From NCBI GenBank assembly GCA_008632985.1, contig QPGO01000049.1, positions 434,001 to 485,206 of the forward strand: 51,206 nucleotides of DNA, given 5' to 3'. Positions 35,979-51,206 of this stretch are shown here, in pieces. The translations under genes and the position numbers were made by a program. Below the pieces are notes generated by a model. It was not told the DNA's origin, ran no database searches, and saw only the letters and a program-made list of their open reading frames with translations. The DNA comes from Psammoneis japonica. Lineage: Eukaryota. Positions within the stretch are counted from its first letter, which is position 1. The number at the start of each line of letters is the position of its first letter.

Positions 35979-36002
35979 CCTAACCCCAACCCTAACCCTA
36001 AA
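35979..36002. repeat. Short interstitial telomere-like (CCCTAA)n tract
   Basis: cctaaccccaaccctaaccctaaa, about 4 units with one imperfect. Confidence 0.5.
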
Positions 36003-36402
36003 GCCACTTCAATCCTCTGAGGTTGATCCTGAGGGTAAAATAGACAAGCTTGTTATCACAATACTTTCTAAGAGTTAAAAGAGATTAATGACTGCTTCAT
36101 CGGCAGTTTTCGTGGTTCACGTGGAACACAACATGAGCGCTGACGCATACGTTTTCTTCACGCTATTTCATTTCGGCATTTGTGCTTCAGATGCACACTT
36201 TCCAACATGCACACTCCTCCTGACCAAGGACAACATTGTTTGCATTTCAAAGTTTGCCCATCTTAGGCACTTGGATGTTCATGATAGTTTGACGATCTTC
36301 ATGATAGTTTGACGATCAACAATGAACTTCTTGCCCACCACAGGCTTGCCGGTCCCCAATCATCTTGTCTGTTGGGCAGAACTTAATCTCAAGTTCTCCA
36401 CG
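36003..36402 (-). mobile_element. Diverged Copia fragment (RNase H tail plus truncated 3' LTR) related to the element at 37356-44297
   Basis: Alignable to ~37855-38235 (e.g. ttgtctgttgggcagaac, gcacttggatgttcatgat, gacaagcttgtt.tcacaat). The LTR end is missing and abuts the CCCTAA tract. Confidence 0.85.
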
Positions 36403-37036
36403 CGTCACTTTGACCTTTCCAATTTCGTCTGCGTAAGTTTTGTCAAGCCAAGTCTAAACTCGTCCACATGCCACTTGTGTCCGACACGCTTCCCATCTCG
36501 CACACCCTCCGCCACTTGCAGTGGGTTGGACCACATGCGTCCCCACGCCACACGACACACTGTGCAGCCCAGGTGGCAAGCCCAGGTCACCGTCATTGGA
36601 GACCAGCACCAGGGTTGGGTGATTGGGAGGGTGCCAGCCATCCAATGGTGAAAAATGCAAGTCAAACGAGGAGAACAACTAACGCAAGTCTAACTTGCCA
36701 ATCAAATGAGGGGCTGACTGCCGACACAAGCCCAACGACATGCGTGTCACATGAGGAGAACGAAATTCTAGTTGCCTGCTGCCACAAGTCTAACATGGAT
36801 CGCGATCGATCTCCGCCAGAGTGGCACTTTCGCAAAAAACCTTGTGCTTGGAGCAAACGTTTTTGGGCTGCTCTGCAGGCTTTGCAACGACAACAAGGCA
36901 GCGAACCGGCATGGGTTGGAGATGGAAATGTTCGAAACCCAGCCACTGAACAAGATCGGCAGACAGCAATGAAAACAATTGCACCGGTTTGCCAGCACTG
37001 TGGTGGAGAATGATCTTTGCCAGCTGCGTTCTCCTC

Positions 37037-37355
37037 TCATGTCTGACATTGCGCAATGCCAACAGTGCCTCTCTTCTTTTCGATGTTTTCCAGTTCGTTG
37101 ATTTGGAGCTGCTCTGACGACATGGACCACAAGAATTTTCCTGTCACGAGGTTTCTCAGGATTCGCAGATGGCAACGGCGTCCAGGAATGAAGTGCTGGG
37201 TGCGGCCGATCTCAACAATCTTCTTGTCGGCAATTTGGAGGACAATGGCGCCATAAAAAGTTCCACGTTCTTTTCCACGTCCATGAATCACAAGCGGCAC
37301 GATGGCGAGTTTCAGCTTTTTCCAGTGCAAGAATGCTCGGTTGTCCCACTCAGCC
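37037..37355 (-). pseudogene. 3' part of the beta-propeller (Beta_propel/PF09826-like) gene, separated from its 5' part by the Copia insertion
   Basis: EWDNRAFLHW...LAIVP...FYGAIVL...EIGR..H...ILRNLV continues in frame from ...GSCSEA at 44298 once one CAGCC copy is removed. Confidence 0.85.
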
Positions 37356-37593
37356 TGTTGGAAATGGCGAATTAAAAGTTCAAACACCAAAATTAGATGG
37401 CGTGAAGAAGACGCATGCGCCAGCGCTCATGTGCTCCATGCGAAGCAACAAAACAGCCGATGGAAGCAGCCATTGTTCTCTTTTGACTCTTGGAAAGTGT
37501 TGCGACAACAAGCTTGTCTATTTTGGCCTCAGGATCAGACCTTGAAGGACTGAGGTGGCTCTGAAATAGTCACCAGAAGGACAAATTGCAACA
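37356..37593 (+). repeat. 5' LTR (238 bp)
   Basis: tgttggaaatgg...aaattgcaaca. Confidence 0.95.
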
Positions 37594-37821
37594 GCCAAAA
37601 GAGAATGATCCAGCTGAGAGCTGTGAAAAGAAAGCAAGAAAGAAAAGAGTCATTCTCACGGTGTGTGAGACATTTTGCTGCTTTGCCTTTTTGTCATGAG
37701 TGGAAGAGGCAGAGGTGGAACTGGCAACAGAAGCCAAGGAAGAGGACCCTCAGGAAGGGGAAACAAGAGTGGCAAGCAAAGCCACAAGGGCGCCAATGGT
37801 TGTGTCCACCATGTTGGAAGT

Positions 37822-38059
37822 TGTTGTAATTTGTCCTTCTGGCAACCATTCCAGAGCCACCTCAGTCCTCTGAGGTCTGATCCTGAGGCCAAAGTGGACA
37901 AGCTTGTTGTCACAATGCTTTCTGAGAGTTAAAAGAGAATGATGACTGCTTCCATCGGCTGTTTTGTTGCTTCACGTGGAGCACATGAGCGCTGGCGCAT
38001 GCGTCTTCTTCACGCTGTCTAATTTTGGTGTTTGAACTTTTGGCCCACCATTTCCAACA
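37822..38059 (-). repeat. Inverted internal 3'-type LTR (238 bp)
   Basis: Reverse complement of the other LTRs, preceded on the minus strand by the purine-rich gcaggagtg. Confidence 0.95.
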
Positions 38060-41000
38060 CACTCCTGCTGACCAATGACAAGATTCTTGCTGTTTCCAAA
38101 TTTGACCATCTTGGGCACTTGGATGTTCATGATGGCTTGACGATCAACAATGGACTTTTTACCAACCACTGGTTTGGTCATGCAATCTGCCATCATCTTG
38201 TCTGTTGGGCAGAACCCAGTCTCAAGTTCTCCTCGCTTGATGAGGTCAGTGATGCAAAAATGCTTGATGTTGAAATGTCTCGTGCGTTTGCCCAAGCTGG
38301 CCTTTCCATTTTGTTCTAGTTTCATGCAACTTTGGTTGTCTCGATGCATGATGTTGCGCTTGACTTCAAAACCTTGAGCTTCAGTGAAACGCTTGGTCCA
38401 AAGGACCTTTGCCAAAACATCGTCTCCTGTGACAATCTCTGCTTCTGTAGAACTCCTGGTGTTGATCTTCTGCTTTGTGCTGACTGATGTAATGACACCT
38501 TTTCCAAGGGTCATGGCAGAACCTGTGTGGCTTTTACAGTCCGGATGGACTGCGAATGCGGCATCCGTGTGCCACTCGACGACAACTTTGTCTCCAGTCG
38601 ACATGACTGCGACATCAAGCTGGGTTGTCTTGAGGAAATTCATGAGCCTCACCAGCTTTGGCCAACCCGATTCGTTCAGATCCTTGACCCTGGTGGAGAG
38701 AAAAGCAATGCCAGGCTGAATGTCCTGTCTGGCTCTCTTGCACACAAACATGCCCTTCATCACAAAAGTGCAAAATGCTCGAGCATGCTTGAGATCTAAT
38801 TTCTTGGCTGTCTCATCCACCTTGTTGAGCTTCTCGCTCCACGGGCAATCCACGTCACCCGACAATTCTTCTGGGAATTCCTTGAAGAACTCCTTGGCCA
38901 TTCCTTGCACACAAAGCACCATGTCAACTTGCAGTGCTCCTGGAATGGAGCAACCTAGAGTCATGGCCAGACAGTCGTGCCTCTTTCCACGCGTGACTTT
39001 GACCTTTCCGATCTCATCCGCGTGAGTTTTGTCCAACCAAATCTTGAATTCATCGTTGACCTTGCTGTCAACATGACCAGACTTTAAATCGTCCACATGC
39101 CATGTCACAGTGTGTTGTTTTCCATTCACGATGCGGTTGGCGACACATGGATCACAAGGATCAATCTCAAATCCGATTCCTTCGATGTCCCTGCTGAACT
39201 TCTTGTGACAAAGAATGGAGGACACCAGCATTCTGCAGAGCGCCTTCAACATTTCAACGTAGAGAACCTTGTGTTTGCCTTCGCACACGACGTGGTCCTG
39301 GCAAGTGTCTGGATCCAATTCCAGCAACATGTCCACCATCCTTCCACGGATCTTCATGATGATCTTTTCATCCTTGACCTCGATGTCCGTTTGCACAAAT
39401 GCGCTCGGGATGTCCGCTGTCATGACGTCTCTGCCTTGCTTGGCATCAATCACTCCTGCAATGAGAGTGGATTCTGTGGATGCTGTCGGACTGGCGGTTT
39501 CGTCTCGGTCCATGCACTCTCGTTGCGTGCTTCCGTTTGCACACAACCTTGACTTGATTCGTCCATCTCTCTTCTCTGTGAGAAACATGAGGCTCTCCAT
39601 GGCTCTCTTCCTCTCCAGAGGAGTCATGTCCTTCATGTGAATGGGTTTGAAAACCACTCTGTCATGGATTTGCTTCAGCTCTGACACTGCCGACTTGTGG
39701 CCTTCTTCTCCAAACTTCTGGAGTCCTCGTGCCAAGCTGTGAGTTTGAACAAATTGCTGTGCAACTTCATCAGTGGAAATCGAGCTAACCTTCTCATTCC
39801 ACTGACACATTGTCATGGCCATGATTCTGGCCGTTTCTAAGCTGCACTCTTCTTCTTGTGAATGAGCTTGAGTCTGTAGATGGCATTGGCAGTCTCCCAA
39901 TCTAACTGGAGGTTTCAGAGTCCTTCCTGCCCTGGATGTAGCAACAGGCTCTTCTTGGACACTTTCTTTGGTTTCACTCTGCTCCTCTCCAGATTCGTCC
40001 TCAGATTCCAGGTCTTTCATTTCGTCGATGATCTCTTGCACTTCTGGAGAGTGTTCCTTCTCTTGTTCCAGCCTCTGTTGTTCATCAATGTGGTCAATCA
40101 TGTCGTCAATTTCTTGTGAAATTCCGCTGCCGTCTGATGGTTGAGAACCAACTTCGTCATTGTCTCCAAGATGCTCATCATTGGAGGTTTCTTCTTGAGT
40201 CTCGTCTTGTTCTTCACTGATGCAGCTGGCTTCTTCATCCAATTCTTGTTCTCGAATTATGTCTTGCAGCTCTTCTTGACTAACTCTGTCGTAGTCTCCC
40301 CAGTCTGGCTCTTCTTCCTCGTCGTCTTCAGTTTCAATGTCTTCTTCTAGATCACAATCTTCGTCTTCAAATTGATCTTCATCATGATCCACTCCTGCAA
40401 GCCAAGCACTGTGGTGCAAAACAGTTCCAGTGCGGTTCTGAATCTTGAGACCGTTGGGCATCTTGTTCATTTCAGCCAAACGATGAACCTGCTTTGTGAT
40501 GGCGGGGGTGATGGGCACAGGTGTGACCTTGCGACGAGTGATCTTCTTGCCGGTTTGCAAGTGCAGCAACTCATGTCCAATCTGGTTGCTGTCGGTGGGG
40601 CGCAAATGAATGCAACCCAAGGTCCGTGACTCTTGGGTGTTCTTGGGGTCCGGGTCATTGTGAGCCTGCACACAAGTGCCGAACGTGATCTTGCAGCTCT
40701 TGTCACAGTCTAGATTCTTTTGATGGAGAATCATTCTCGGACTGTAATGTTTGGAAACGCCGTGCTTGGTTGGAAAATAATTGAGCTTCTTAGCAGCTTC
40801 GGTGACCATGACTTCGACCATGAGTTTTGGCAGATGCTTGAATGGCAGCTGATGATAGACTGCCCTGGCACGTTCTTGAATAACTCGGTTGTTTCTTTCG
40901 GCTTCTGGGACATGCTCTTGAGCATGTGCGCAGTTCATCTTGAGATCAAACTTGTCTTCTAGTGCATTCCCAATGGGCCTGAATTCGTTGTCACAACGAA

Positions 41001-41079
41001 TGCGTGTGACCTTCAAATCGGCCTTGTTGTAGACTTGCAGCACATCTTCCAGAGCTTCTTGATGAGCCAGTTGGGTCAA
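37972..41079 (-). pseudogene. pol: Copia pol (integrase-RT-RNase H), TA-mutated
   Basis: RIRCDNEF, EHVPEAERNNR (INT); KRDGRIKSRLCANGS, ADIPSAFVQT, DPCVANR, TWHVDDLK (RT); TDAAFAVH, NTRSSTEAE, RDNQS, ADCMTKP (RNase H). Tyr is nearly absent, replaced by Cys/His. Confidence 0.95.
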
Positions 41080-42930
41080 GTCCTTGAGCGGTTGTGCCGT
41101 GCGATAAAAAATGTTTCATGACACTGTGGTGAGGAATGGCAATCCATTCACCTTGAGACCGTCCAGGCAAAGAGTGACCTTGTGTTGTGCTGCAATGAGC
41201 TCCTTCAGGATCTCCACGCAGTCTTCTACAACTGGCTCCGGCTTCTGCCTTGTGACCTTGCCTTTTAGACTTCCAATGTCTGGTCCAAAAATCTTCTCGG
41301 CCAAATCTACATCCTCCGTTGTGATGGGATTGTTCTTGATGCTGTTCATGCAAATGATGGCCTTCAGATTGTTCACGGTTGGGTTTCCCAATGCGTGCAA
41401 CAATTCCCCAGCCCTCTTGGCTTTCTCGAACTGTCGTGGAGTGTAGAACTTCTTGTTCTCTTCCACACTCTGCACAAATTGGAGCTGAGTTCCAGTGTCG
41501 TTTGTCTTGGGCTTGTAAACGTGCAGCCCTTTTTCCGTCCTCCTCGAACCTGACCTTCTTGTTGGGGAGATGAACGGTGAATGCATTGTCTTGCTTAGAA
41601 TCACTTGTGATTCTGTGTTTCTTCTTCATGTCAGAGCAAGCAAAAATGTTGGTGATTGCATCTGGGTTGAACCAAGTCTCGCCAAACCCTGGCACCGTGG
41701 CCTTGTGTGTCGTGACTGGGACTCCGCCATTGGTGTGCAAATGCATGGCTTCATCCAACGGACTGATGTCTGCAACGAGCTTCTCATTGCAGAAGATTGT
41801 GGTTGTGGACTGGTTGTCCAATAAAATCCAGTCTCTCATGCTGCCAGATTGATCCTGGTGGAGAGATGCATCGATGTGCATGCCAGCCCATCCTGAAACA
41901 GCAGATTTTGTTCCAGTGGATTCTTTGGCAGAAGAGTTGGCTGCACTGGCATCGTCACTTGCCTGAGCGTTGCTTGCTTCTTGCTTGGCTTTGGCCTTGT
42001 TGATGGCCCATTCTGCTTGAGGTTTTCCTTGCCTTTCCCAGCACTTGTTGGAATTGTGTCTGGCCTTGCCACAGCAGCAACACTTGCCTTCTAACTGAGT
42101 GAAGGACAGCGTGATTTCTTGGTTTTCTTCTTGTTTCTTGGAGTCAGAGTTGTTGTTTTGATTGTTCCTGTTACGGCAGTTGTCAGGCTGACCAACACAG
42201 TCAAAAGTGTGGTTGCTCAACACCGTGTTGGCTTCCACAATGGACTTGGGACATTGGTTGTTCTTGAGGGACTGCTGAGTGTTCAATCCTGTTAGAATTG
42301 ATCCACACTTGCGCTGGTCTGCATTCTCCAAGTGCATGTAACCCATCAATTGGCTGAACGACTTTTCTTGACACTTCTTGACAGAATCCGCATTGTGCTC
42401 GTCAAATTCTGACATGCCTTGCACTGCCTTGGTGAGGACAATTGGTCCTCCAATGTGAGACTTCATGATGTCCCTTGCAACCCTGAATCTCTTGGTGCAA
42501 TCTTGGAGACTCTCCTTCTCCTTCTGCTTGGTTTCCAGCACCGCTCTCATTGAATCTGAGATGACAGCCATGTCACACCTGTGCTCTTGGCAGTTCAATG
42601 CATGCTCCTTAATGGCCTTGAGCAATTCGACAGGATCGTTTTTAATTTTGGTTTGGAACTGTGTTCTTGCTTGAATCTTGTTCTTCATGGCCTTGGAGCA
42701 TCTCTCCCAGAGCAAAGCACAAGCCTTGACAAGGTTGTTCTCACAAGTTTGGGTCCTCTTAATGTGAGCATCAAATTCTGTCTTGAACTCAATTTCATGC
42801 TGTTTGTTCAATGGCATGTCCACCTTGTCATCTCCAGTCAAGCTGACCTGCAAAGTTGGCTTCTTAGAACTCATGTCACATGGAGTGTAAGTGTTGAGTG
42901 CAGTTGCAATGTCATTTCCAAACTCATGAG
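41080..42930 (-). pseudogene. gag: Copia gag-protease region, 5'-truncated and frameshifted
   Basis: EFGNDIATAL; zinc knuckle KCCCCGKARHNSNKC (cf. CYCCG..GH....C); protease WILLDNQST; FYTPRQFEKAKRA, NNPITTEDV.LAEKIFGPDIGSLKGK. Frameshifts near 41535 and 41100. Confidence 0.9.
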
Positions 42931-44058
42931 TCGAAGGAATCGGATTTGAGATTGATCCTTGTGATCCATGTGTCGCCAACCGCATCGTGAATGGAAAACA
43001 ACACACTGTGACATGGCATGTGGACGATTTAAAGTCTGGTCATGTTGACAGCAAGGTCAACGATGAATTCAAGATTTGGTTGGACAAAACTCACGCGGAT
43101 GAGATCGGAAAGGTCAAAGTCATGCGTGGAAAGAGGCACGACCATCTAGCCATGACTCTAGATTGCTCCATTCCAGGAGCACTGCAAGTTGACATGGTGC
43201 TTTATGTGCAAGGAATGGCCAAGGAGTTCTTCAAGGAATTCCCAGAAGAATTGTCGGGTGACGTGGATTGCCCGTGGAGCGAGAAGCTCAACAAGGTGGA
43301 TGAGACAGCCAAGAAATTAGATCTCAATCGTGCTCGAGCATTTTGCACTTTTGTGATGAAAGGGCATGTTTGTGTGCAAGAGAGCCAGACAGGACATTCA
43401 GCCTGGCATTGCTTTTCTCTCCACCAGGGTCAAGGATCCGAATGAATTGGATTGGCCAAAGCTGGTGAGGCTCATGAATTTCCTCAAGACAACCCAGCTT
43501 GATGTCGCAGTCATGTCGGCTGGAGACAAAGTCATCATCGAGTGGCACACGGGTGCCACATTCACAGTCCATCTGGACTGTAAAAGTCACACAGGTTCTG
43601 CCATGACCCTTGGAAAAGGCATCATTGCATCAGTCAGCATGAAGCAGAAGATCAACACCAGGAGTTCTGCAGAAGCAGAGATCATCGCAGGAGACGATGT
43701 TTTGGCAAAGGTCCTTTGGACCAAGCGTTTTGTTGAAGCTCAAGGTTTTGAAGTCGAGCGCAACATCATGCATCGAGACAATCAAAGTTGCATGAAACTG
43801 GAACAAAATGGAAAGGCCAGCTTGGGCAAATGCACAAGACATTTCAACATCAAGTGCTTTTACATCACTGACCTCATCAAGCGAGGAGAACTTGAGATTA
43901 AGTTCTGCCCAACAGACAAGATGATGGCAGATTACATGACCAAACCAGTGGTTGGTAAAAAAGTTCATTGTTGATCGTCAAGCCATCATGAACATCCAAG
44001 TGCCCAAGATGGTCAAATTTGGAAATGGCAAGAATCTTGTCATTGGTCAGCAGGAGTG
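42931..44058 (+). pseudogene. pol: Second copy of Copia RT (3' half)-RNase H, inverted duplicate of 38060-39185
   Basis: Near-identical to the minus-strand copy (EGIGFEIDPCDPCVANR...ADYMTKP), with small indels near 43360 and 43960. Confidence 0.95.
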
Positions 44059-44297
44059 TGTTGGAAATGGTGAGTTAAAAGTTCAAACACCAAAATTAGA
44101 TGGCGTGAAGAAGATGCATGCGCCAGCGCTCATGTGCTCCACATGAAGCAACAAAACAGCCGATGGGAAGCAGTCATTGTTCTCTCCCAACTCTCAGAAA
44201 GTATTGTGACAACAAGCTTGTCCATTTTGGCCTCAGGATCAGACCTTGGAGGACTGAGGTGGCTCTGAAACAGTCACCAGAAGGATGAATTACAACA
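44059..44297 (+). repeat. 3' LTR (239 bp)
   Basis: gcaggagtg|tgttggaaatgg...gaattacaaca|cagcc. Confidence 0.95.
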
Positions 44298-46063
44298 CAG
44301 CCTCGGAGCAGCTTCCTCGGAGTGTCCACACTGTCAGTTCCTTTGGGTTTGTTTCGTCGCTCATGTTGAATGGCGACACCTTGGTTCCCAATGTCCTTCC
44401 ATTTGCAACGTCCTTTCCAACACCGAGGACTCTCCCATCCTCCACTCTGTGAAGATGCGTGCTGAAGCCAGGGATCTTGAGCTCTCCCTTGACTTCAAGC
44501 TTCTTTGGATTTGCCAAGTCGATGATGTGGAGCGGATCCGTTTCCCCAAATGTCACAACGCATGCAATGTCCTTGTGATGTCGCACCGCAAAGATGCGCT
44601 CGCCAACGCCTGGGTCTTCAACAAGGCCCACAGGCTTCAGCAAGCCCTTGTCATCGTCGATCTTGAATGAAGTGACCCTGCTCTTGCTGAGCGACCGCCC
44701 TGTCCACCAAGAGGCCCCGACGGTCGACGCAATGAAGAAGTGGCCGTCGTTCTCGTGCACAGAGAATCGGTTGAGGATGCCACCCTGTGAGCAGCAAACA
44801 AAGACAAGACTTGAGCAAAGCCATGCATTGAAATCCACTCGGGCAGTGAAGCACGCTTGCTTGCGGTGATTTGACCAGATGCTCTGTGTGTCGCCCCCGT
44901 TTTGCTCAGGCTAAATCGGTGGATGCGTGTCTGGCAGTTCGGACCCCAACGGTTGGCGCTGTTGGGCACATTGCCAAATTGGAACTCATTGGTCGTCACG
45001 TGCATCAACTGCTTGGTCACGTGCAAAGCCTCGGCGTTGGAGACAATTGAGTTTGATGACGTTGGAGTCATGAGTTTGTTGAGCGGCAGCGTCACTGCTG
45101 AGAGCATCAAAAAGGCCGAGAACACATCTGGCAAATGGCACAGGTCACTGCATGACCCGCACACGCCAACCTGTGTTTGCTTTCCCTTTTGAAGCTTGTG
45201 GGTTGGCAGCCAATTCCCAGCCCTTGAGCATTCGATGATCTCCTGGTTCCACTTGAGTGTCTGATCTGACTTGTGTGTGCGGTTGGGCCTGTGCAGCCAG
45301 ATGGACTGCAAAGGTTGAATTTGATCACGATTCGTGCAACGCCATCTGTTTCACGCACCTTGACGTATGATCCTTCAAGATGAAGCATTGAAATCAGCTT
45401 CGGCTTGCAGTTCTTGATGCGGATTTGGTGCAAAACAGTCAAGTCCTCACCACGTGACGGATGGCGTCTGTGCTGTTGTTGGACCTTGCGTTTGTAGTTA
45501 CGGTCGCGACCAATGACGATGACAAAGTTCTTTTCGAGCAGCATGTCGTCCGGGCGGGCAGGCAGTTGGATTGTTCCAGCAACTCTTCCGCCCCCACCCT
45601 CGTTGAGGACCTTGATGACGGCCAACTTTGAGCCCGAGATCGCGCACACCATCTCACCATCAGTCTTGACAATGTCGGCCTCGTCGATGCCCTTTACCTG
45701 GACATTGGCACCCGAGAAGTCCTTGCCCTCCTCCTTGCCTTCTTTGTCATCTTCATCGTCGATGAAAGAATTGCCTTTGGTGATGTTTCCCTTTTCAATG
45801 ACTTTGGGGTCTTCGAAAGGCTTGTAGAGCTTTGGCCCAGCAGGCCCGCCCGGACAGCCTGGCTTGCCGGCAAACTCTGGATTTCGGGTCGGTGTGCAGG
45901 CGTTGCGGGAGTTGAGGCCGCATGGACCGATGAGCGGCAGCACCTTGTTGATGTGGCAGTTGTTCATCGCGGTGCAGCTGTCGAAGCTGCTGATGAGCTC
46001 TGGCTGCGAGGTGCAGGGCGACAGAACCAGGGACAAGGCGAGGATGAACGGTGACAACATCAT
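44298..46063 (-). pseudogene. 5' part of a secreted beta-propeller domain gene (Beta_propel/PF09826-like), TA-mutated, with decayed intron 44785-44864
   Basis: Signal peptide MMLSPFILALSLVLS; family motifs FSGANVQVKGIDEADIVKTDG, GGILNRFSVHE.DG, GERIFAVR, VVTFGETDPLHIIDL, GELKIPGFSTHLH; frameshift near 45312. Confidence 0.88.
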
Positions 46064-46399
46064 CGGGGCTGGAAAGAGCAGTGGTTGTTGACAGTTGGTA
46101 ACTTCTTAGGATTGATTGTTTGTGGGAGTGTTGGCGAGAGCAGTCGTTCGAAATCGGGTGATGGGTGATGCGAAGCCGAATTGCTGTGTTCTTCCAACTT
46201 CTCCTCCAGCATGTCAATCAATCGTCAAACACTGAGTTAAGTCATTTCACAAATGCCACACTGCAAACAGTGATTTGAGAATTAAATGATGGGCAAGAAA
46301 GGACTTGAGCTCAGACGTTGTCAATCGATCCGTGACCTCGAACCCACAATCACATGACATGACATTGCTTGGGGCCCTCTGCTGGCAGGAGCACGCAAA

Positions 46400-47170
46400 C
46401 ATTTGTGTGGTGAAAGGGCAATGATGGTCGATTTGAACAATGATCCTCTGTCAAATGTTTCTTTCAAAATGTCCGACCGATGCTGGATTCTCGTTTCTGA
46501 CTGGGGCGGTGTCAGGGAGCAGACATTGCAATGATCATTGACAGTCATTTGCCCAACCTTTTTCCGATGGAGTGCAACAAAGATTTGTTGTGCCATGTGC
46601 CAAAAGACCCATGTGTGTAGACACCCCCCTGCTGTTTTCTTGCATTCTGATTGGATCTGCTGCGTCACAATTTCAAGCGCAGATGGATGATGATGGCTTG
46701 AGGATGATCCCGAGTTGCCCGAATTCCCCCCGCACTGTAGACCCATTCCAGCTGCCATCCTTCATCGACGCGGCATCCACCACTGGACATGCCCATGCCC
46801 TTGCTGGTGCCACCATCGACCACCGCTGTGCCATCCAAACCCTCACAGCCACCAGCTCCACCGAGGCCGAATTCATTGCTTGTGTCACCGCGGCCAAACA
46901 AACCTTGTGCCTCTGTTCAGTGTTGGTGTTGGGCTTTCCTCAAAAGGGACCTGCACCCCTGCACACTGACAACTCATCGGCTGTCAAGAGATGGTCAATC
47001 ACCAAATCCCCACCGAGTGATCACGGCACATTGACACCTGACATTTCGCAATCTAAGACTGGCAGGAGGCCAACAAGATTGTCGCCAGACATGTTCCAGG
47101 TGTCATTGACCCTGCCAATGTGCTTGTCAAGGTTGTGGGATGGATCCTGCATGCCTGCCATGCTCACCGA
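46400..47170 (+). mobile_element. Degenerate Copia RNase H fragment from a different family
   Basis: FIDAA-STTGHAHALAGATIDHR..IQTLTATSSTEAEFIACVTAAKQ...LGFPQKGP..LHTDNSSA. Left boundary approximate. Confidence 0.85.
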
Positions 47171-47949
47171 TTGATGGAACACTGCCATTGAACAGATCAG
47201 TGCTTGTGCCCCTGGACCATTGCAGGGCGATTGGCGATTGTCTGTTGCACATTTCCCATCTGTCACACTGTTCTCTCTTCTCTTCATGCATCTTTGATGC
47301 TGTTTTTTTTCTCTTGATTGGCATCTGCTGATTGCTCATCAGGGGAGGGTGACAGAGCTGACCGAGTCATGAGTCGTGCGTGCCTGTGAGGTGGCTCACA
47401 GTCACACACCCAGTGGACAGACATTGTCACAAGCAGCGGATGTGCTTCCTCACTTGTGTCAACTCTCCTTGGGGAGAAGTTGCAAAACTGCTGTGGAGGC
47501 AGGAATTCTGGCACAACCTCTTTCTCCAACAGATGCTGTGGCTCCTGCAAAACCAAGCTGATGGCTCGCACACGTGTGCCACCAGCTCCCATGGCTTCAC
47601 TGCTTTTGAACACACTGATTTCCACTCTGAGTGGTTGTGAGCCCAAGCTTGCATGTGTGCCCACTCACACACATGCAAAACTTTTGAGCCACACTTGCCC
47701 ATGGTGGTCAGCAACAATGTCATGATTTGGGCATCACAGCTTGCAGCTTGCACAGGCGTGACACACTCAAATGTCAGTGCAAATTTTTTCAAACCCTTTG
47801 CTGATGCTGTTCATGCTGTGTGGACCTCATGTGCCCCTGATTTAACAGGCACCAAGCAAACAATTAGGTTCAAAAAGGAAGAGTGAGTTAGAGGCAAGTC
47901 AAGGATGACAGTGAAAGAGGAACATGGAACTTTGTGTGGAGGAAAACAG

Positions 47950-49500
47950 TGCTCTGCTCTGTTGTTCTGGCATGAGAGCAGCTGACAAAGAAAGTCTGGC
48001 TCCATTGCTTCCTCCATTGGATGACACTCTCCAGGATGGCACAATGGAGTTGCAACATTTCTTTGAAAGCCAGGATGATGTTGACTGTTGCATGCTGGCC
48101 AGTGGTGAAAACACCAGCCGGGCTCCCAACCGACAGTGAAACCTTTGATTTCAGCCAGCTTTGCTTGTTAATTGAGCACAAGTGGATGGAGACAGATGAG
48201 TCAAAGACTTGGAGCAGTTGTGCTCCAACATTCTAGAACAGCATCAACAAGAGCAAGATTCCTTCAAGCTTCACTCTTGCAACAATCTTTTCATCAGTTC
48301 TGCCTGGACTGTTGGCAGTGAGAAGCAATTGTTCCACATGTTGCCCCACGTTGTGAGGGTGGATGCAACTTCTCACTCCAACAATGAGAAGAGGATGCTC
48401 CTCACATTTTCAGCCAGGTCACCGGATTGATCACACTTTGTTTTTTGCATGTGCACTTGCCAGACCAGACTCAACCCACATCTCGCTGGATGTTCAAAGA
48501 TGTGTTTCCAACACTTTTGGACAAGCGGTCCCTCCAACACATCCACATGATGTTTGCCGACAGTGATTCCCCCAAGTCATTGAAGAGCTCCGTGATGCCA
48601 TCCACAGCCATGTGCCTTCAACCTGCCAAGCAAGATGTGGATGGCACATTGTTGAAAAAGGTTGGATGACTCACTGCCCCAGAGAAAAAAGCATCTCTGC
48701 GGGCCAAACTTGTGAGTGATTCAAGCTGTCAGTTGCCACAACAAAGGCACAGTTGTGCTCAAGCACTGTGAAAAAGCCAACAACTCAAGTCATGAAGGAA
48801 CCAATTTAGGCAGCACCCCAGTCCTGAATTTGCAAAACCTGGCAACAACTGCAACTTTTCTGGCAATGCAGTCAGATGCAAAGGTTGCAGAAATGCTGTG
48901 TGAATTAAGTGGGATGGTGCACACATGGTGTCTTTGGTTGAAACTTCCAACCGTCAATCATGTGCTGACCAGGTGCAAGGGCATGCTCTCCAGATGTTGG
49001 AAAGCTGTCCATTGTCATGAGGTCAGGTGCAAGCTGAATGGTCAAAGCAATGACCCCAACTGCGCAGCATGGGAAGCAGCTTGCAAAGTTACAAATGACA
49101 AAGAAAGCAACACACAAGGAAACCCCAAAGACCAAGAATGCCAAGAACAAGAAAACAATTCTGAGGAAAGCAACCCATGCTTCAAGCACATCCCAAAGCA
49201 CCAGCGGGTGCTTGTTGTCTGCATGGATGGATCATGAGTTCTTCATTGTGCCTGTGCTGAGTTCCAACGCACAGGCATGGGATGCATTCATCAGTTGTCC
49301 ATGATGAAGTTTGAGTTGGGCCAGCAATTTAAAGGATTCTCTCATCTCATGACGTGTCCATTGCATGGTGGCAAAAGCATTCCCACCATGCTTTCAGTGG
49401 GAACAAGCAAGTGGATGGCCTGGATGACATTTTCAAAGCTTTGTTGGAAAATGATGCAAAGGGGCCATGGATGCCAGATCACTTTGATCCAACAGTTGTG
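47950..49500 (+). mobile_element. Degenerate Mutator-like (MULE) transposase with SWIM zinc finger
   Basis: LFHMLPHVVRVDATSHSNNEKRMLLTFS (first catalytic Asp region), RWMFKDVFPTLL...MFADSD, RCGWHIV (CxxH, ~48634-48654) and LHCACAEFQRTGMGCIH (SWIM, ~49241-49291) in the expected order. Boundaries approximate; lies in a depleted block running to ~51100. Confidence 0.75.
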
Positions 49501-51206
49501 CCCAAGCCAACCACCATGACAGAGTCTGTTTTTGACATGCCCTGCAATGTCATGTCATCTTTGACCAACTGCTCTGAGGAACAAGCAAAGCAAGCAGTCA
49601 AATCCACCATGCCATTGTTCAACACACAGCCACTGCTGAATTTTCACAGATGCCCAATGTCAACATGCAGGATGAGGGTGATGGAGACCAAGACCTGGTG
49701 CTCAGTTTCCTGGATGATGCTCGCCAATCCGGTTGTGAAGTGTGGTCCCAAAATGACACTGAACAACAAGTCATGCATTGCAACCAAAGTGCTTGCAACA
49801 TTTTGGTGCCAAGGACAAACACTCTTTGTGGTCTGTTTGTGTCTCAAGATGTGTCCTGTGTGGACATGCCAGACATCAAACCCTTGGCAACAGCAACAGA
49901 CGAGGCAATTGCAGAGATGTGAGGCAAGCTGCACTCTCTCCATGTGTCTTTGTCAGACTGCCAAGACAACTCTGCACCACAATGGATGTTGAATTGTGGC
50001 AAGCAAGACACAAAGCACTGATGCACCCACACACGAAAATGGTCTTGCTTGAATGGTGGCACATGCAGTGGTGCACCTGAATCATTGGGGGGTGTTGCAC
50101 ACACTGAAAGAAAAAGCTCAACTGCAACCCACTTTCAATGCCTGACACGGTGATCAAGTCACAGACCAATGGCATCTCAAAGAACTTTGCTTGACAAATC
50201 AACACCATCACCATGACCAAGTGGTTCCAACAGACTCACTGGGTGATCTGCAGCAAGCCATTGCTTGGGAGTTGTGAGTTCTCTTGGGAACTTGAATGAC
50301 TTCAAAGTCTCCACACTGGGCAAGGAGCTTGCACTCATGTCAACCTTCATGTTCACATGGTGAGCTGTCTCATCTTTTTCTGGCAATTCACCACCACAAG
50401 GGAATCTGTCAATGACATGCTCACACATTCCTGTGTTGTCTTGTCCAGGCAAATGAACAGCAAGAGCCTTCATGCCGATGCACTCAAACATGGGAGTGTG
50501 CTCTTAAACAAGGCATTGCAAAACTCTTTGCTCTTCATGGTTGTCTTGTTTCTTCTCCTTGCAAAGGCATGGCTTGAGCCACCTCTCTCTGCAGTGCTCT
50601 GCCAAGCCAGCACGTTCTCTCCCAAGATGATGTTGCAGTGTCTTCCCAAAGGCACAAATCCTGGGTTCACTTTTCAACCGTGCTTCACAGGAAGCTCACA
50701 ATTGATGGCTCCTGTGACTGCATTGGCTGGTTTGACAACAGCCTGTGTGGCCATCTAGGAAGGCAGGGTGCCTGTCTTTCCCTTCTGGCCAACATCATGA
50801 GTGCCGGTCAAATTGCCGCATTGTTTGACAAGCCTTGTTGATTTGGTCCAGCTGAGGAGGAACCACTCAAACAGAAATCTCTTTCCATGGTGCAGGCATG
50901 CTGCAGCCCTTCCAGTCATCTTTGGGCATGACATCTGCATCAGGCTTGAGTGCATTGCTGAAATGATGGAAGTCCTCTTGTCCTCCATGTTCCTCCTTGC
51001 TTTGCCCGGCACATTCTGCAAATGTCAAAGAATGCACCCAGCCCACTTTCATTCTCACAAATGTTGAAAATGGAAAGCCTTTGGCTTTGCAAAACAGGGA
51101 GCTGGAACAATTTCGTAGAGGATCACATGCAGACATGTGCACGCGAAACGTGGCGCGATCCAAAAATCTGTTGATGTCACAGTTCAGCAGTGCAAGGTCC
51201 CACCTG

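What the first reader, a model, noticed from the sequence alone, without database searches (positions are those of the whole stretch)
44785..44864. Splice donor apparently destroyed by TA>CA (GTAAGT -> GCAAGC) in a host-type gene
Seen on the minus strand: GGT CAA ATC ACC | gcaagcaagc ... gctcacag | GGT GGC ATC CTC AAC. Removing these 80 nt restores the frame (SGQIT-GGILNRFS), and the length matches other introns here (73-94 nt). Inference: the donor was gtaagtaagc. The process therefore also hits non-TE, intron-containing genes inside repeat domains and can abolish splicing.
Basis: partly seen in the sequence, partly recalled or inferred. Interest (0 to 1): 0.7.

Follow-up and report, generated by a model that had tools for sequence, protein, structure and literature searches.

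The report
Copied intron hit by TA mutator
In a broken duplicate of a diatom gene, an 80-base intron starts with GC where the intact copy has GT, one of dozens of TA-to-CA/TG changes in this region that likely disable its splicing, and look-alikes of the same intron sit in five unrelated genes, so it likely spread by being copied.

Summary
The GT>GC donor change is real. An intact paralog (G000:C19) has the same 80-nt intron starting GTAAGCGAGC, and a paralog on C12 lacks the intron. At GTAA/TTAC sites the process gives the GC outcome 24 times and the harmless GTG outcome once. Loss of splicing is likely (5 of 9 U1 matches) but untested, as no RNA run was listed. It is not needed to explain the gene's death: a Copia element splits the gene and an upstream frameshift stops it. 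The process matches TpA hypermutation reported in Bigelowiella natans, and this scan has noted it, donor hits included, many times elsewhere in this genome. New here: the intron has 71-88% similar copies at intron positions in four unrelated genes, plus a core in a fifth. At two sites, paralogs lack it. It is a small introner-like family in a pennate diatom, with no target-site duplication seen. Both parts are new members of known kinds.

The parts
44785..44864 (-). 80-nt phase-0 spliceosomal intron, GC...AG in this copy; member of a small family of look-alike introns in unrelated genes
44858..44865 (-). Donor site C|GCAAGCA: +2 (44863) T>C in TA context, +7 (44858) G>A in CG context; exon -1 (44865) is C where C19 has G. 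5 of 9 matches to this genome's U1 5' end, against 7 of 9 for C19
44785..44792 (-). Acceptor GCTCACAG (C19: GCTTATAG); both TA steps changed but YAG kept
44865..46063 (-). Exon 1 of a PF09826 beta-propeller gene, about 90% identical to the intact C19 copy, TA-stripped
45311..45312 (-). 1-nt deletion (frameshift) relative to C19, C244 and C12; first stop at 45109-45107 after 318 codons. Seen in a 58-nt short-read contig that is too short to count as a full bridge
44298..44784 (-). Exon 2, 5' part, up to the Copia insertion
37356..44297 (.). Composite Copia-type LTR retrotransposon insertion (nested copies in opposite orientation) splitting exon 2; 5-bp target-site duplication at 37351-37355 and 44298-44302; itself TA-stripped
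37037..37355 (-). Exon 2, 3' part; the natural TAA stop of C19 reads CAA here
37001..51206 (.). TA-depleted domain (TpA observed/expected 0.03-0.17 per kb, CpA and TpG 1.4-2.1) that contains the gene

Best explanation
The intron in this broken duplicate gene starts with GC because the TA step of an ancestral GTAAGC donor became CA, as did most TA steps around it, and this likely stops its splicing. History, with shown and inferred steps marked. (1) Shown: the intron is one of a small family of look-alike introns in unrelated genes, and paralogs lack it. Inferred: it was gained by copying a whole intron, both splice sites included, into the coding sequence, most likely through RNA (reverse splicing, then reverse transcription). 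(2) Shown: the intron-bearing gene duplicated, and the duplicate evolved under purifying selection for a time. (3) Shown: Copia elements inserted into it, separately on the two haplotypes, and TA and CG steps then changed without regard to coding effect. Inferred: the region had been silenced, and an adenine-directed process (A>G in TpA, possibly a deaminase) acted on it along with methyl-CG decay. (4) Shown on this locus: the A of TAC is hit far more often than the A of TAA. So a GTAA donor is rewritten on the opposite strand to GCAA rather than to the tolerated GTGA. The donor change is a by-product in a gene that is dead for other reasons.
For: Intact C19 copy with GTAAGCGAGC...TTATAG and a 659-aa spliced frame; C12 copy without the intron. 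T>C before A at 53 of 116 sites, against 5 of 210 before T and 2 of 264 before C. Polarised with C12: 23 of 52 on the window branch, 1 of 34 on the C19 branch. At GTAA/TTAC sites the GC-type outcome was 12 to 0 in the window and 12 to 1 in C244. TA changes ignore coding effect (34 of 80 nonsynonymous, 14 of 26 synonymous, p=0.37), and 24 of 27 tyrosines are lost. Other differences shared by both dead alleles give pN/pS 0.12. Two different target-site duplications on the two haplotypes. Intron family. In human genes only about 15-18% of GT>GC donors still give normal transcript, and those pair better with U1 (10.1101/479493, passages); this donor has 5 of 9 matches.
Against: Splicing was not observed for any copy. 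GC-AG introns are ordinary major-spliceosome substrates, and the 15-18% figure is human, not diatom. The C244 allele keeps an open 563-codon frame up to its Copia if the GC intron is spliced. The two haplotypes agree in TA fate more than independence predicts (62 of 85 against 51), so part of the erosion, perhaps the donor change, may predate both Copia insertions. The enzyme is unknown. Two family copies (C42, C91) are also open in frame when left unspliced. A 6-bp inverted repeat at the ends of four of five copies leaves a DNA-transposon origin open.
Confidence: 0.8

Rival explanations
1. The GC donor still works (a GC-AG intron), and the TA process creates usable GC donors rather than destroying introns.
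For: GC-AG is the commonest non-GT donor class, and some GT>GC variants splice (10.1101/479493, passages). +3 to +5 AAG and the YAG acceptor survive. Both haplotypes carry GC, and C244 stays open up to its Copia if spliced.
Against: Working GC donors are reported to match U1 better than average, while this one lacks -2, -1 and +6 matches (5 of 9). GC in both haplotypes is what the context bias predicts with no selection. The coding sequence shows no selection on TA or CG changes.
Confidence: 0.12
2. The donor change was the first, killing lesion: the TA process reached a working duplicate, broke splicing, and the Copia insertions and frameshift came later.
For: The donor change is shared by both haplotypes, while the Copia insertions and the frameshift are not. 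TA fates agree in 62 of 85 sites against 51 expected, and CG changes coincide at 22 sites against 16.6 expected. A shared repeat block lies upstream on both haplotypes.
Against: In palindromic contexts, where there is no strand bias, agreement is 11 of 20, near chance, so much of the erosion is independent. The Copia elements are themselves TA-stripped, so the process ran after insertion. About two-thirds of all TA changes alter amino acids (34 of 48 in the window), so the donor would be one of many simultaneous lesions.
Confidence: 0.15
3. The look-alike introns are insertions of a tiny non-autonomous DNA transposon with short inverted ends, not RNA-copied introns.
For: GTAAGC at the 5' end and GCTTAY near the 3' end in four of five full copies; the terminal stem is predicted in all four intact copies folded. 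Introners with inverted ends but no target-site duplication exist, and most families were judged DNA-based (PMC9860276, passages). A core copy lies inside a longer intron at C93.
Against: The repeat is only 6 bp and overlaps the donor itself. No common target-site duplication flanks the copies; the 3-nt ACT repeat at C42 adds no residue relative to paralogs. All six places found are intronic and in sense orientation; no intergenic copy turned up in the nine own-genome DNA and pattern searches aimed at the intron, though these have limited sensitivity.
Confidence: 0.25
4. The GC is an ordinary point mutation or an assembly error unrelated to any special process.
For: A single site cannot by itself show its cause.
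Against: The GC is in a short-read contig and on both haplotypes. Background T>C in other contexts is 1-4%, against 46% before A.
Confidence: 0.02

Closest known systems
TpA-restricted hypermutation in Bigelowiella natans (Mettrop et al., bioRxiv 10.64898/2026.01.13.699255; parts 1-3 of 5 read)
   Same: TpA>TpG/CpA transitions on both strands, confined to regions; long-term TpA loss with CpA/TpG gain; some host-type domains among depleted genes.
   Different: There the rate was measured in mutation-accumulation lines on integrated viral DNA. Here it is inferred from copies, in a diatom, on a duplicated gene and Copia elements, together with CG loss and a TAC>TAA preference. I saw no mention of splice sites or of 3' context in the parts read.
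Repeat-induced point mutation (RIP) of ascomycetes (recalled; also named in the preprint's discussion)
   Same: Dense context-specific transitions that wreck repeated DNA and nearby gene copies.
   Different: Opposite direction (C>T, making TA), and it typically hits both duplicates; here the C19 copy is spared.
[quoted passage not shown] 2013, PMC3609843; parts 1-2 of 3 read)
   Same: Near-identical introns in unrelated genes, normal length, no special folding stability: the LCI profile.
   Different: Found in a diatom; true ILEs are long, stably folded and high-copy, which this family is not.
Introners (Gozashti et al. 2022, PMC9860276, passages; 2025, PMC12130899, one methods section, passages and supplement rows)
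   Same: At least four similar introns in non-paralogous genes, similarity reaching the intron ends but not the exons; families as small as four are listed for Thalassiosira oceanica.
   Different: The two T. oceanica rows I saw are scored 'carry 5', co-opt 3''; this family appears to carry both sites. The six pennate genomes I looked up in that screen had no family. No parent transposon was found here.
GT>GC (+2T>C) donor variants and natural GC-AG introns (Lin et al., 10.1101/479493, passages)
   Same: Same change at the same position.
   Different: Here produced by a regional, directional mutation process in a dead gene; outcome unmeasured.

Membership tests
Bigelowiella-type TpA hypermutation | A:T>G:C transitions concentrated on TpA, both strands | tested here: met
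   53 of 116 T>C before A against 5 of 210 and 2 of 264; CA 27 and TG 23 of 58 TA. A weaker T>C before G (10 of 233) also occurs.
Bigelowiella-type TpA hypermutation | Regional, sparing the rest of the genome | tested here: met
   TpA o/e 0.03-0.17 across 37001-51206 against 0.4-1.0 in gene blocks; intact C19 copy about 0.5-0.7.
Bigelowiella-type TpA hypermutation | About 1000-fold raised rate measured per generation, active in only some lines | not testable with these tools
   Only indirect: haplotypes differ at 705 of 19317 sites in depleted blocks and 34 of 4671 in normal blocks, with similar transversion rates.
Bigelowiella-type TpA hypermutation | Targets integrated viral DNA | tested here: not met
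   The target here is a beta-propeller gene copy and Copia elements.
Fungal RIP | C>T at CpA/TpG, raising TpA | tested here: not met
   C>T before A only 4 of 233; TpA falls.
Introner family (Gozashti criteria) | Four or more similar introns in genes of different paralogy groups | tested here: met
   Five full copies (C19, C14, C42, C91, C72); no protein or DNA similarity among six host loci with introns masked.
Introner family (Gozashti criteria) | Similarity reaches the intron ends in the same orientation and stops at the exons | tested here: met
   Introns 71-88% alike, 60-nt exon flanks 38-51% among four copies; alignment. The C93 copy fails this test (core inside a longer intron).
Introner family (Gozashti criteria) | Copies are spliced out of RNA | not testable with these tools
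   Frame reasoning only: stops when unspliced at C19, C14 and C72; open either way at C42 and C91.
Introner family (Gozashti criteria) | Empty site in homologs (gain) | tested here: met
   C12 paralog has no intron; 18 of 19 M12B-like paralog loci read straight through the C42 site, one unclear. Not tested for C14, C72, C91.
DNA-transposon-type introner | Target-site duplication and terminal inverted repeats | tested here: inconclusive
   No shared duplication; 6-bp inverted ends in four of five copies. Five copies are below the 15 used in PMC9860276 to score these.
Fungal-type ILE | Long, high-copy, stably folded | tested here: not met
   75-81 nt, six places found, folding z of 0.64, 0.24, -1.82 and -0.08.
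Functional GC-AG intron | Strong U1 pairing at the other donor positions | tested here: not met
   ACC|GCAAGC matches 5 of 9 positions of the U1-derived ideal AAG|GTAAGT; the U1 hit is below the Rfam cut-off (52.8 against 69.5 bits).

The most novel reading that the evidence does not exclude
This pennate diatom has spliceosomal introns that jump whole into unrelated genes through an RNA route, carrying both splice sites and leaving no target duplication. Its TA mutator, by preferring TAC, turns canonical GTAA donors into GC donors in bulk, which both disarms intron copies caught in silenced DNA and offers a DNA-level source of GC-AG introns.
Probability: 0.3. Interest if true: 0.68.

Novelty: new member of a known kind. 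Interest (0 to 1): 0.42.

Why it matters
The donor change alone is a repeat observation in a dead gene. Two things add value. First, the TAC>TAA preference is a fingerprint for the unknown mutator, and it predicts the fate of splice donors (GC, not GTG) wherever the process reaches. Second, the intron is a recently copied one with empty sites in paralogs. Intron gain by copying into unrelated genes is rarely caught, and the six pennate diatom genomes I looked up in a large published screen had no such family. The family gives a small, concrete set in which to test RNA- versus DNA-based intron movement. It also fixes the ancestral donor independently of the paralog.

Tried and rejected
No RNA holder listed for 44300-46100, so splicing and expression stay open. 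GTAAGT as the ancestral donor: rejected. Assembly error at the donor: rejected. C244 as a separate paralog: judged the other haplotype, because it is colinear from 22505 to the contig end and differs at 0.7% of sites in normal blocks; contigs specific to it or to the window show depth about 26-42, and those that look like C19 about 48-56 (a weak measure). Stable RNA fold of the family: not found. An exact 27-nt family pattern in metagenome contigs: 0 matches. Two extra pattern hits (C139, C288) were dropped: the reversed control gave 5 hits, and the profile found nothing in them. The L010 hit (69% over 156 nt) and the decayed intron-less fragment on C81 (L006) were not analysed further. A profile search of the whole genome was not possible, so the family count of six places is a lower bound. 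Pfam gave no family for the C72 exons and only weak, uninformative hits for C14; C42 is only weakly M12B-like (E 0.087). Literature: searches listed no paper on TpA loss in diatoms among the 20 of 43 and 12 of 29 shown; one search gave no diatom GC-AG frequency. bioRxiv supplements were closed, so context tables of the Bigelowiella preprint were not seen. Two of 14 supplement files of PMC12130899 were not searched, and I did not check whether this genome was in that screen.

Full report
Observation. On the minus strand, 44864-44785 reads GCAAGCAAGC...GCTCACAG (80 nt) between GGT CAA ATC ACC and GGT GGC ATC CTC AAC. A short-read contig of run X1 covers 44790-44965 without a difference, so the GC is real. 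The window is G000:C50:434001-485206. The best named relatives of its acetyl-CoA synthetase are pennate diatoms.

The gene and its copies. The intron lies in a PF09826 beta-propeller gene. A search of the genome found copies at 94% (C244), 91% (C19) and 75-78% (C12). C19 is intact: with its GTAAGCGAGC...GCTTATAG intron removed it encodes 659 aa, and unspliced it stops at 409 aa. C12 is one 818-aa frame with no intron at this point. 29 of the top 35 homologous proteins match the motif across the junction. So the intron and its boundaries are right. C244 is colinear with the window from 22505 to the contig end and differs at 34 of 4671 sites in normal blocks, so it is most likely the other haplotype. 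It also has GC.

The copy is dead for other reasons. A composite Copia insertion (37356-44297, 5-bp duplication GGCTG) splits exon 2, and the last codons lie at 37355-37037. A 1-nt deletion near 45312 brings a stop at 45109-45107, before the intron is reached. A 58-nt contig shows the deletion but is too short to count as a full bridge. C244 has no frameshift but has its own Copia, 2 bp away, in the opposite orientation and with a different duplication (CTGAG).

The mutation process. Against C19, 52 of 58 TA steps in the aligned gene are gone (27 CA, 23 TG, 1 CG, 1 AG), and 39 of 135 CG steps became TG or CA. T>C occurs at 53 of 116 sites before A, 10 of 233 before G, 5 of 210 before T and 2 of 264 before C. 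With C12 as outgroup, 23 of 52 TA sites changed on the window branch and 1 of 34 on the C19 branch. The TA changes ignore coding effect (34 of 80 nonsynonymous, 14 of 26 synonymous, p=0.37), and 24 of 27 tyrosines are lost. Other differences shared by both dead alleles give pN/pS 0.12, with 6 nonsynonymous and 11 synonymous on the stem of the dead copy. The duplicate therefore worked for a time and was then eroded without selection.

Context rule. Over 121 TA sites in gene and flanks, scored in both haplotypes, the A of TAC was hit about 6.7 times as readily as the A of TAA (TAG 1.9, TAT 1.7) (the haplotypes are not independent). A GTAA donor reads TAC on the other strand. At 11 GTAA sites, one of them this donor, the outcome was GCAA 17, GTGA 1, unchanged 4. 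Adding the 5 TTAC sites, the GC-type outcome is 12 to 0 in the window and 12 to 1 in C244. So GC on both haplotypes is expected without selection and does not date the change. Timing is mixed. TA fates agree at 62 of 85 sites against 51 expected if independent, but at only 11 of 20 palindromic sites, and the Copia elements are TA-stripped themselves.

Is splicing lost? It is not measured; no RNA run was available. The genome's U1 candidate (below the Rfam cut-off) starts AUACUUACCUU. The C19 donor matches 7 of 9 positions and the window donor 5 of 9. In human genes about 15-18% of GT>GC donors still give some normal transcript, and those pair better with U1 (10.1101/479493, passages). Loss is likely, by inference from another kingdom.

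The intron is a copied one. Three of the first ten hits covered only the intron. Follow-up found full copies at GT...AG positions in four unrelated genes: C14 (79 nt), C42 (75 nt, M12B-like peptidase, weak Pfam hit), C91 (81 nt, SBF-like transporter) and C72 (78 nt). A core copy lies inside a 156-nt putative intron at C93 (DUF2985). Among C19, C14, C42 and C91 the introns are 71-88% alike, and their 60-nt exon flanks 38-51%. C72, which was not in the model, scores 49 bits. With introns masked, the six host loci share no protein or DNA similarity. Empty sites: C12, and 18 of 19 paralog loci of the C42 gene, one unclear. C14 and C72 also begin GTAAGCGAG, which confirms the ancestral donor. Against: C42 and C91 are open in frame unspliced, and no copy was seen spliced. 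No common target-site duplication flanks the copies. Four of five have 6-bp inverted ends, and folding is unremarkable. The count is a lower bound, because only BLAST and pattern searches could be run on the genome.

Mechanism. Shown: copying of one intron into unrelated genes, gene duplication, Copia insertions, selection-blind TA and CG erosion, and the TAC preference. Inferred: RNA-mediated intron transposition (about 0.55, against 0.25 for a tiny DNA transposon and the rest for other routes such as repair-templated insertion); silencing as the trigger; an adenine deaminase or error-prone repair as the agent; loss of splicing (about 0.85 if transcribed).

Comparison. The process works like the TpA hypermutation measured in Bigelowiella natans (10.64898/2026.01.13.699255, parts 1-3 of 5 read), though the target here is not viral and no rate was measured. 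It is the reverse of fungal RIP (recalled). Earlier notes of this scan record the process throughout this genome and donor hits in several other genes, so that part is a repeat. The intron family fits the low-copy introns of fungi (PMC3609843, parts 1-2 of 3) and meets the four-gene introner rule of PMC12130899 (methods section). In that paper's supplement Thalassiosira oceanica has six families, and the six pennate genomes I looked up have none (six name terms, 12 of 14 files). PMC9860276 (passages) lists families without target duplications. PMC11347168 and PMC4457414 (passages only) added little.

Verdict. The donor change is an ordinary outcome of a process known from one preprint and seen many times in this scan. 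The context rule and the small introner-like family lift it to moderate interest, 0.42.

Noticed in passing
window 37351-37355 and 44298-44302; G000:C244:67141-67145 and 72782-72786 (approx.): The two haplotypes carry separate insertions of the same Copia family 2 bp apart, in opposite orientation, with different 5-bp duplications (GGCTG, CTGAG). This suggests a strongly preferred target site.
   Followed up: partly
window 37356-44297: The insertion is composite: a plus-strand element whose middle is replaced by a minus-strand copy (37822-42932) that is 95% identical to, and in the same orientation as, the C244 element.
   Followed up: partly
L019:5039-7492 (C12) and window 44298-46063: The best named relatives of the beta-propeller gene are red algal (Gracilariopsis, Agarophyton, about 54%), then bacterial. 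No named diatom protein was among the 120 listed, so a transfer from red algae or bacteria is possible. The C12 copy has an extra C-terminal region of about 160 aa.
   Followed up: no
window 37037-37050 and 44785-44864: The process removes stop codons: the gene's own TAA reads CAA, and the in-frame TAG inside the intron is gone in both alleles.
   Followed up: yes
alignment A1: A weaker T>C before G (CA>CG, TG>CG) occurs at 4-7% in the dead alleles, also when polarised (6 and 11 of 154), above other non-TA contexts.
   Followed up: partly
L008:1475-1630 (C93): The family core sits inside a longer 156-nt putative intron with a different 5' end and an internal AG: possibly a nested or extended copy.
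   Followed up: partly
L006 (C81:178430-178866): A short, decayed fragment of the beta-propeller gene that lacks the intron region, next to a TA-depleted block.
   Followed up: no
L050-L069: A family of about 20 M12B-like peptidase paralogs, several clustered on C42, with varied intron positions just downstream of the YCG motif.
   Followed up: no
window 36002-36403: An older, more diverged piece (76-81%) of the same LTR family just beyond the gene's 3' end, on both haplotypes.
   Followed up: no
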